Shown: one piece after another, positions 3,241 through 3,555 of the stretch | Position numbering within the stretch: position 1 is the first letter of the stretch | How the letters are laid out: the number at the start of each line of letters is the position of its first letter | IMG/VR virus record: IMGVR_UViG_2563366959_000008 | DNA: 22,976 bases | From: a virus | Taxonomy: Duplodnaviria > Heunggongvirae > Uroviricota > Caudoviricetes | Reading direction: 5' to 3' (one strand) | Notes under the pieces: model-generated | Databases searched by the model: none | What the model saw: only the letters and a program-made list of their open reading frames with translations | What the model was told of the DNA's origin: nothing | Translations under genes and position numbers: made by a program

Positions 3241-3555
3241 ATGCTACATGATCACGTGGCAGAATGTCTGGAGAAAAAAGGACTGTACCGGAGAGCAGCT
3301 GAACGATGGGCAAAAGTGATGGTACAGCTAAGTGATGACCAGAAAAGAAAAGTGGCGGCACAGAAACGAGCAGAGTGTTTGCGTAAGGCGCGCCGGACTC
3401 CGGTTTCACCGGTGAACCTGACCGAAATAAAACAAGCGGTCAACAGACTACATTCTGAGTTGGGAATGGGATTTGAAGAGCGGCGGGTATTCCGACGATA
3501 TAAAGGGACAGGAGAACAGAATACGTCCGGAAACGCGCGGTCAAAAAAATGCTAA
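3241..3555 (+). CDS. PerC-family transcriptional regulator-like protein (Pch-like)
   Basis: 104 aa with strong RBS (GGAGG 7 nt upstream); N-terminal LEKKGLYRRAAERW motif recalled as the PerC/Pch signature, basic C-terminus. Family assignment is from memory, not a search. Confidence 0.55.
   Translation: MLHDHVAECLEKKGLYRRAAERWAKVMVQLSDDQKRKVAAQKRAECLRKARRTPVSPVNLTEIKQAVNRLHSELGMGFEERRVFRRYKGTGEQNTSGNARSKKC

What the first reader, a model, noticed from the sequence alone, without database searches (positions are those of the whole stretch)
3241..3555. PerC/Pch-like virulence-regulator moron between the lysis cassette and cos
A 104-aa ORF with a strong RBS carries the N-terminal LE.KGLYRRAAERW signature I associate with the PerC family (EPEC PerC and the prophage-encoded Pch activators of the LEE regulator ler in EHEC). 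It has its own upstream AT-rich region and a bidirectional terminator downstream, i.e. an autonomous cargo gene. If the assignment is right, this prophage carries a regulator that can cross-talk to a chromosomal pathogenicity island.
Basis: partly seen in the sequence, partly recalled or inferred. Interest (0 to 1): 0.6.

Follow-up and report, generated by a model that had tools for sequence, protein, structure and literature searches.

The report
pchA, a known prophage virulence regulator

Summary
The ORF at 3241..3555 (+) is real: 104 aa, with a GGAGG ribosome-binding site 6 nt upstream. It matches Pfam PerC (PF06069) over its full length (E 3.8e-44). It is 104/104 identical to PchA (ECs_1091) of E. 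coli O157:H7 Sakai. It is 99% identical to PchB, 98% to PchC, 47% to EPEC PerC, 40% to PchE and 29% to PchD. Window 2790..3718, which covers the promoter region, the gene and the terminator, is base-for-base identical to the Sakai pchA locus. The gene sits in the cargo slot between Rz/Rz1 and cosN (exact GGGCGGCGACCT at 4069..4080) of an Sp4-like lambdoid prophage. pchB and pchC occupy the same slot in Sakai Sp11 and Sp14. The upstream region is 25% G+C, and a hairpin between pchA and the convergent ylcI-family gene can act as a terminator on both strands. RefSeq already annotates the gene as a PerC family regulator. The CDS occurs in 673 of 5426 complete E. coli genomes; ler occurs in 697. 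Published work shows that PchA binds the LEE1 promoter and displaces H-NS. Whether this host carries LEE cannot be read from the window. Verdict: interpretation supported, already known, low interest.

The parts
3241..3555 (+). pchA coding sequence (104 aa, PerC family, group 1 Pch)
   Evidence: ORF listed. Pfam PF06069 E 3.8e-44. 104/104 identical to Sakai PchA ECs_1091. RefSeq relatives annotate it as WP_001303878.1, PerC family transcriptional regulator.
3230..3234 (+). Shine-Dalgarno GGAGG, 6 nt before the ATG
   Evidence: Read directly from the sequence.
3050..3200 (+). AT-rich (25% G+C), T-rich upstream region with imperfect 21-25-nt repeats at 3110..3186; presumed regulatory and H-NS-prone DNA
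   Evidence: Composition profile and Tandem Repeats Finder. Base-for-base identical to the region upstream of Sakai pchA. The regulatory function is inferred, not shown.
3592..3618 (.). Hairpin flanked by A-run and T-run between convergent pchA and ylcI-family gene; candidate bidirectional intrinsic terminator
   Evidence: Folds on both strands: an 11-bp stem on +, a 10-bp stem on -. Not called by the consensus scanner.
2754..3726 (.). Variable cargo slot between Rz and the ylcI-cos block, filled here by the pchA cassette
   Evidence: Homology to the pch-less Sakai prophage Sp8 ends at 2753 and resumes at 3727. Sp11 (pchB) and Sp14 (pchC) align through the whole slot at 94-96%.
3637..3861 (-). 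YlcI/YnfO-family small protein (DUF3950), convergent with pchA
   Evidence: Pfam DUF3950 E 1.3e-17, phrog_949, RefSeq annotation in relatives.
4069..4080 (+). cosN cohesive-end sequence GGGCGGCGACCT, identical to phage lambda
   Evidence: Exact match within the lambda-like cos context.
4264..4773 (+). Terminase small subunit (Nu1)
   Evidence: Pfam Phage_Nu1 E 1e-18; annotation in relatives.
545..2775 (+). Lysis cassette: P21-type holin 545..751, lysozyme 1439..1972, Rz 2308..2775 with embedded Rz1 2528..2713
   Evidence: Pfam Phage_holin_2_1, Phage_lysozyme and Phage_lysis; annotation in relatives. Rz1 was not scanned against any family: it is assigned from its position inside Rz (ORF list) and the lipoprotein gene annotated there in Sakai (ECs_1093).

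Best explanation
The ORF is pchA, a group-1 PerC homologue carried as a cargo gene (moron) in the Rz-to-cos slot of an Sp4-like lambdoid prophage of E. coli. The published mechanism for the identical protein runs as follows. PchA is a small, mostly helical protein with a basic tail. It binds AT-rich DNA at the LEE1 (ler) promoter and other horizontally acquired loci. [quoted passage not shown] Expression has two reported sources. In the lysogen, host regulators act on pchA (LrhA, Lrp/butyrate, LeuO, NtrC). After SOS induction, group-1 pch expression rises; I infer that this is read-through from the phage late promoter. Shown here: identity of protein and locus, family membership, position and anatomy. 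Taken from the literature: DNA binding, H-NS displacement and LEE activation. Inferred: that this copy is expressed, and that this host carries LEE.
For: Full-length Pfam PerC match: 149.3 bits, cut-off 22.6. 104/104 identity to Sakai PchA; 99% to PchB and 98% to PchC, against 29% to PchD, 40% to PchE and 47% to PerC. Window 2790..3718 is 100% identical in DNA to the Sakai pchA locus, including the upstream region and the hairpin. pchB (Sp11) and pchC (Sp14) sit in the same position between the endopeptidase Rz and the terminase small subunit. The exact protein is in public collections under the names 'PchABC family transcriptional regulator' and 'PerC family transcriptional regulator', on at least 1000 contigs. 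The CDS occurs at 99% identity or more in 673 of 5426 complete E. coli genomes, median 3 copies per genome. That number is close to the 697 genomes that carry ler/LEE1. Mechanism: PMC4764244 reports that Pch activates LEE1 only when H-NS/StpA/Hha/YdgT silence it, and that it reduces H-NS occupancy in vivo and in vitro. PMC6265319 reports that group 1 is needed for ler expression and adherence and is SOS-induced. PMC4456613 and PMC13012123 describe the upstream regulators.
Against: Nothing contradicts the identification. Several caveats apply. The window does not contain LEE, so the target of the regulator in this host is not shown. The prophage carries IS629 in gpW, but that does not touch pchA. 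No promoter was identified by the consensus scan. The co-occurrence of pch and ler was compared only as counts, not genome by genome.
Confidence: 0.93

Rival explanations
1. The gene is an intact pchA, but the host lacks LEE. The regulator then acts on other H-NS-silenced, AT-rich targets (non-LEE loci, acid-resistance, curli or flagellar genes) or is simply neutral cargo.
For: The 1.5-kb locus is 100% identical in strains from dogs, pigs, raw milk and other sources whose pathotype was not checked. Pch binds many non-LEE sites and weakly affects csgD and curli (PMC4456613, PMC6265319).
Against: The number of genomes with the pchABC CDS (673) almost equals the number with ler (697) among 5426 genomes. 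The closest relatives include O103:H2, O145 and O157 EHEC. Dog and pig isolates with this locus could well be atypical EPEC.
Confidence: 0.1
2. The gene has no autonomous expression. It is only a passenger of the phage late operon, transcribed by Q-antiterminated read-through from pR' during induction.
For: It lies on the same strand directly downstream of the lysis genes. Group-1 pch transcripts rise after SOS induction (PMC6265319). No above-chance promoter match was found upstream.
Against: Published work shows regulation of pchA by LrhA, Lrp/butyrate, LeuO and NtrC in uninduced lysogens, and a pch deletion phenotype under ordinary LEE-inducing growth (PMC4456613, PMC13012123, PMC4764244). 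A 465-bp intergenic region at 25-35% G+C, conserved base-for-base with Sakai, precedes the gene.
Confidence: 0.1
3. Pch works mainly by protein-protein contact with H-NS or another regulator, as the ANR/Aar family of small helical proteins does, rather than by sequence-directed DNA binding.
For: All seven compared proteins (window, PchA-E, PerC) give a weak match of the N-terminal helices to NCBIfam ANR_neg_reg; best E 0.0017, window protein E 0.046. The same hint was published for a PICI PerC-like protein that represses LEE (PMC11773190). No recognised DNA-binding domain and no solved relative were found.
Against: The match is far below the curated cut-off (13.6 bits against 32). ChIP shows PchA on LEE1 DNA independently of H-NS/StpA. 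H-NS binding at the gadE promoter is unaffected by PchA, which the authors take to exclude general inhibition of H-NS (PMC4764244).
Confidence: 0.1

Closest known systems
PchA (ECs_1091) of E. coli O157:H7 Sakai prophage Sp4
   Same: The protein is 104/104 identical. The DNA is identical from 451 nt upstream of the ATG to 163 nt past the stop (window 2790..3718). The prophage type is the same: 94.8-100% identity over all shared blocks, 96-100% over the lysis, packaging and head genes.
   Different: In Sakai the lysis-pchA block is inverted and bounded on the pchA side by an IS629 remnant, with ISEc8 inserted in Nu1 further along, and Sp4 has lost about 2.5 kb of head-tail genes. The window keeps the canonical order but has its own IS629 in gpW.
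PchB (ECs_2182, Sp11) and PchC (ECs_2737, Sp14)
   Same: 99% and 98% identical, the same 104-aa length, and the same slot between Rz and the terminase small subunit.
   Different: V7L in both, plus V59M in PchC. The flanking DNA is 94-96% identical rather than 100%.
PerC of EPEC E2348/69 plasmid pMAR2 (perABC operon)
   Same: Same Pfam family; 47% identity over residues 2-88. Both are reported to activate the LEE1 promoter (PMC4456613).
   Different: PerC is plasmid-borne, is the third gene of the perABC operon, is 89 aa long and lacks the basic C-terminal tail. According to PMC4764244, LEE expression in EPEC is unaffected by loss of perC, whereas EHEC depends on pch.
PchD (SpLE1) and PchE (Sp7), groups 2 and 3
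   Same: Same family and the same invariant N-terminal motif.
   Different: Only 29% and 40% identical, about 89-90 aa, different genomic contexts, and reported to have little effect on LEE (PMC6265319).
ANR (AraC negative regulator) family, e.g. Aar
   Same: Small helical regulators of horizontally acquired virulence genes that interact with the H-NS system. A weak but consistent sequence match to residues 7-47.
   Different: Below the family cut-off. ANR proteins are repressors that act by protein-protein contact, whereas PchA is an activator found on DNA by ChIP (PMC4764244, PMC10148876).

Membership tests
PerC family (Pfam PF06069) | Whole-protein score above the Pfam gathering threshold, covering the full model | tested here: met
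   149.3 bits against 22.6; residues 1-89 on profile positions 1-89 of 90; E 3.8e-44. Also phrog_994, E 1.4e-45.
PerC family (Pfam PF06069) | Conserved N-terminal motif LE-x-x-G-x-x-RRA-x-x-RW shared with PerC and PchA-E | tested here: met
   Invariant columns A7 L10 E11 G14 R17 R18 A19 R22 W23 M27 R36 R43 C46 in alignment A1.
Group 1 Pch (PchA/PchB/PchC) | Near-identity to the Sakai PchA/B/C proteins, and a 104-aa length that includes the basic C-terminal extension absent from PchD, PchE and PerC | tested here: met
   100%, 99% and 98% identity, against 29% (PchD), 40% (PchE) and 47% (PerC).
Group 1 Pch (PchA/PchB/PchC) | Location in a lambda-like prophage between the Rz/Rz1 lysis genes and cos/terminase | tested here: met
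   Rz ends at 2775, cosN is at 4069..4080 and Nu1 starts at 4264. Sakai Sp11 and Sp14 have the same arrangement.
Group 1 Pch (PchA/PchB/PchC) | Activates the LEE1/ler promoter by relieving H-NS silencing | not testable with these tools
   Shown experimentally for the identical Sakai protein (PMC4764244, PMC6265319). Not tested for this copy.
Group 1 Pch (PchA/PchB/PchC) | The host genome carries LEE (ler), the regulator's target | not testable with these tools
   The window holds only prophage DNA. As an indirect indication, 673 genomes carry the CDS and 697 carry ler among 5426, but the overlap was not computed.
Phage moron (autonomous cargo gene) | Present in some members of a phage group and absent from others at the same site, with its own flanking regulatory signals | tested here: met
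   The slot 2754..3726 is replaced by bor and other genes in Sakai Sp8. Most sequenced lambdoid phages match only 3727..4113. The region has an AT-rich upstream stretch and a downstream hairpin. An own promoter was not demonstrated.
ANR (AraC negative regulator) family, NCBIfam NF033650 | Score above the curated cut-off of 32 bits | tested here: not met
   13.6 bits, E 0.046, for the window protein. All 7 aligned PerC-family proteins hit weakly, best E 0.0017.

The most novel reading that the evidence does not exclude
The PerC/Pch family and the ANR (Aar/Rnr) family may share a common ancestral N-terminal helical module. If so, Pch could counteract H-NS at least partly through protein-protein contact. 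That would give 'activator' and 'repressor' members of one superfamily the same underlying mechanism. This concerns the family, not this particular copy.
Probability: 0.12. Interest if true: 0.4.

Novelty: already known. Interest (0 to 1): 0.08.

Why it matters
pchA is one of the master switches of attaching-and-effacing virulence in EHEC. Its presence marks this prophage as part of the regulatory network that links lambdoid prophages to the LEE island. All of this is established and already annotated. The practical value here is correct annotation: group-1 pch, PchA allele, carried on a probably defective Sp4-like prophage. It also shows that the first-stage reader recognised a real family signature from sequence alone.

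Tried and rejected
1. The simple promoter/terminator scan gave no above-chance promoter and missed the hairpin, so folding was used instead.
2. The Rfam gathering scan of the whole window found only the ALIL pseudoknot of the IS629 transposase frameshift site and nothing near pchA.
3. PADLOC gave no hit for PchA or its small neighbours beyond a chance-level one.
4. The PDB sequence search gave no relative even at E 10.
5. The single-sequence AlphaFold2 model was poor (mean pLDDT 51, pTM 0.33), so it was not fold-searched. Only its four-helix pattern and disordered tail are mentioned.
6. Abe et al. 2008 and Porter et al. 2005 are not held in the library.
7. I did not run the large protein-database searches. 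The identification was already exact and the cost was not justified.
8. The source strain could not be identified. The best complete-genome match, UTAK-4, is 98.9% identical and lacks the IS629 in gpW.
9. Readings considered and rejected: a pseudogene (the ORF is intact and identical to the functional allele), and the antisense ORFs at 3239..3409 and 3252..3443 (no support of any kind).

Full report
**Observation.** The window has an ATG-to-TAA ORF of 104 codons at exactly 3241..3555 on the + strand. GGAGG lies at 3230..3234, 6 nt before the ATG. The N-terminus reads MLHDHVAECLEKKGLYRRAAERW, so the quoted signature is present. The 465-bp intergenic region upstream is AT-rich. It reaches a minimum of 25.3% G+C at 3050..3199, against 45-60% in the neighbouring genes. 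It also contains imperfect T-rich repeats of 21-25 nt at 3110..3186. Downstream, a hairpin at 3592..3618, with a GC core flanked by an A-run and a T-run, folds on both strands. It lies between the pchA stop and the stop of a convergent ORF at 3637..3861 (-). That ORF belongs to the YlcI/YnfO (DUF3950) family. The consensus scanner did not call the hairpin and found no more promoter-like sites than chance. The terminator is therefore plausible, and the promoter is not shown.

**Context.** Upstream lie a P21-type holin (545..751), a lysozyme (1439..1972) and Rz (to 2775), all by Pfam match. Rz1 (2528..2713) is assigned from its position inside Rz and the lipoprotein gene annotated there in Sakai. 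Downstream lie an exact lambda cosN 12-mer GGGCGGCGACCT at 4069..4080 within lambda-like cos sequence, then Nu1 (4264..4773), terminase large subunit, and head and tail genes. 'Between the lysis cassette and cos' is correct.

**What it is.**
- The protein matches Pfam PerC (PF06069) end to end: E 3.8e-44, 149.3 bits against a cut-off of 22.6. It also matches phrog_994.
- The 1.5-kb locus is 100% identical in many complete E. coli genomes, where RefSeq annotates 'PerC family transcriptional regulator | YlcI/YnfO family protein | terminase small subunit'. The protein there is WP_001303878.1.
- The exact sequence is in the public protein collection on at least 1000 contigs. One source names it 'PchABC family transcriptional regulator'.
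- I fetched all five pch genes of O157:H7 Sakai and perC of EPEC E2348/69 and aligned them. The window protein is 104/104 identical to PchA. It is 99% identical to PchB (V7L), 98% to PchC (V7L, V59M), 47% to PerC, 40% to PchE and 29% to PchD.
- At the DNA level, window 2790..3718 has no difference from the Sakai pchA locus.

The gene is therefore the PchA allele of the group-1 pch genes.

**Cargo status.** Sakai Sp11 and Sp14 carry pchB and pchC in the same place, between Rz and the terminase small subunit, and align through the whole region at 94-96%. The pch-less lambdoid prophage Sp8 shares only Rz (to window 2753) and the ylcI-cos block (from 3727). In between it has bor and two other genes. 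Sequenced lambdoid phages likewise match only about 3727..4113. The pchA cassette is thus a roughly 1-kb insert in the classical moron slot between Rz and cos.

**How it works (from the literature on the identical protein).**
[quoted passage not shown] It also reports that group-1 pch expression rises on SOS induction.
[quoted passage not shown] Pch lowers H-NS occupancy at LEE1 in vivo and in a reconstituted system. PchA binding to LEE1 DNA is independent of H-NS/StpA. H-NS at the gadE promoter is untouched.
- PMC4456613 and PMC13012123 report that LrhA, Lrp/butyrate, LeuO and NtrC act upstream of pchA.

My reading is that this copy does the same. Expression would come both from host-regulated transcription in the lysogen and, by inference from its position downstream of the lysis genes, from late-operon read-through after induction.

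**Limits.**
- The window holds only prophage DNA, so whether the host has LEE is unknown.
- The pchABC CDS is found in 673 of 5426 complete genomes, at 99% identity or more in 687 of 688 records, with a median of 3 copies per genome. A ler/LEE1 probe from Sakai finds 697 genomes. The numbers fit co-occurrence, but I could not compute the overlap.
- The source strain is not in the collection. The best match, UTAK-4, is 98.9% identical and lacks the window's IS629 insertion.

**Structure and the ANR hint.** No PDB entry resembles the protein by sequence. A single-sequence AlphaFold2 model was of low confidence (pLDDT 51). It suggested four helices (3-13, 16-27, 32-52, 60-74) and a disordered basic tail, and I did not fold-search it. 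NCBIfam gave a sub-threshold match of residues 7-47 to the ANR family (E 0.046). All seven aligned PerC-family proteins give this weak match, best E 0.0017. The same hint was published for a PICI-encoded PerC-like repressor of LEE (PMC11773190). It is a lead about the family, not about this locus, and the ChIP and gadE data in PMC4764244 argue against a purely ANR-like mechanism.

**Verdict.** The gene is pchA, already named, characterised and annotated. Novelty: already known. Interest: low.

Noticed in passing
window 6798..8107 (-), junctions at 6795..6797 and 8108..8110: A complete 1310-bp IS629 (IS3 family) is inserted in the head-tail joining gene gpW with a 3-bp target duplication, ATC. 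It has terminal inverted repeats TGAACCGCCCCGG..., OrfB at 6840..7730, and the ALIL frameshift pseudoknot at 7656..7772. gpW is cut after codon 47 of 68, so the prophage is probably unable to make infectious particles, while pchA stays intact. Close relatives (PV16-126, UTAK-4) lack this insertion.
   Followed up: yes
window 223..3718 compared with L002 (Sakai Sp4) 26696..23202: In Sakai Sp4 the whole holin-lysozyme-Rz-pchA block is inverted, with an IS629 remnant at its pchA end; ISEc8 is inserted in Nu1 further along. Sp4 also lacks about 2.5 kb of head-tail genes (window 11953..14454). The window keeps the unrearranged order, so it looks like a less decayed version of the pchA phage.
   Followed up: partly
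window 3259..3381 (PchA residues 7-47); alignment A1: The window protein, PchA-E and EPEC PerC all give weak sub-threshold matches to the NCBIfam ANR (AraC negative regulator) family, best E 0.0017. This hints at remote homology between the PerC and ANR families. A 2025 paper (PMC11773190) noted the same for a PICI PerC-like LEE repressor.
   Followed up: partly
window 2858..2998 (+): A 46-aa ORF between Rz and pchA matches phrog_2157 over its full length (E 2.7e-37, function unknown). It is not annotated in the RefSeq relatives examined. A hairpin at 2990..3006 overlapping its stop codon looks like a terminator for the minus strand.
   Followed up: partly
window 21191..21718 (-): A Cu/Zn superoxide dismutase gene (sodC) sits on the opposite strand between the tail assembly gene I and the tail tip gene J. 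It is a second, well-known cargo gene of this prophage type, annotated as sodC in Sakai Sp4 and other relatives.
   Followed up: partly
window 3110..3186: Imperfect T-rich tandem repeats (period 21-25 nt, about 3 copies, 72-74% matches) lie in the 25% G+C region upstream of pchA. They are possibly curved or H-NS-binding DNA. Their function was not examined.
   Followed up: no
window 1007..1321 (-) and 3877..4032 (-): Two small minus-strand ORFs have full-length PHROG matches of unknown function. One is phrog_1853, between holin and lysozyme, annotated as hypothetical in relatives. The other is phrog_9395, between ylcI and cos.
   Followed up: no
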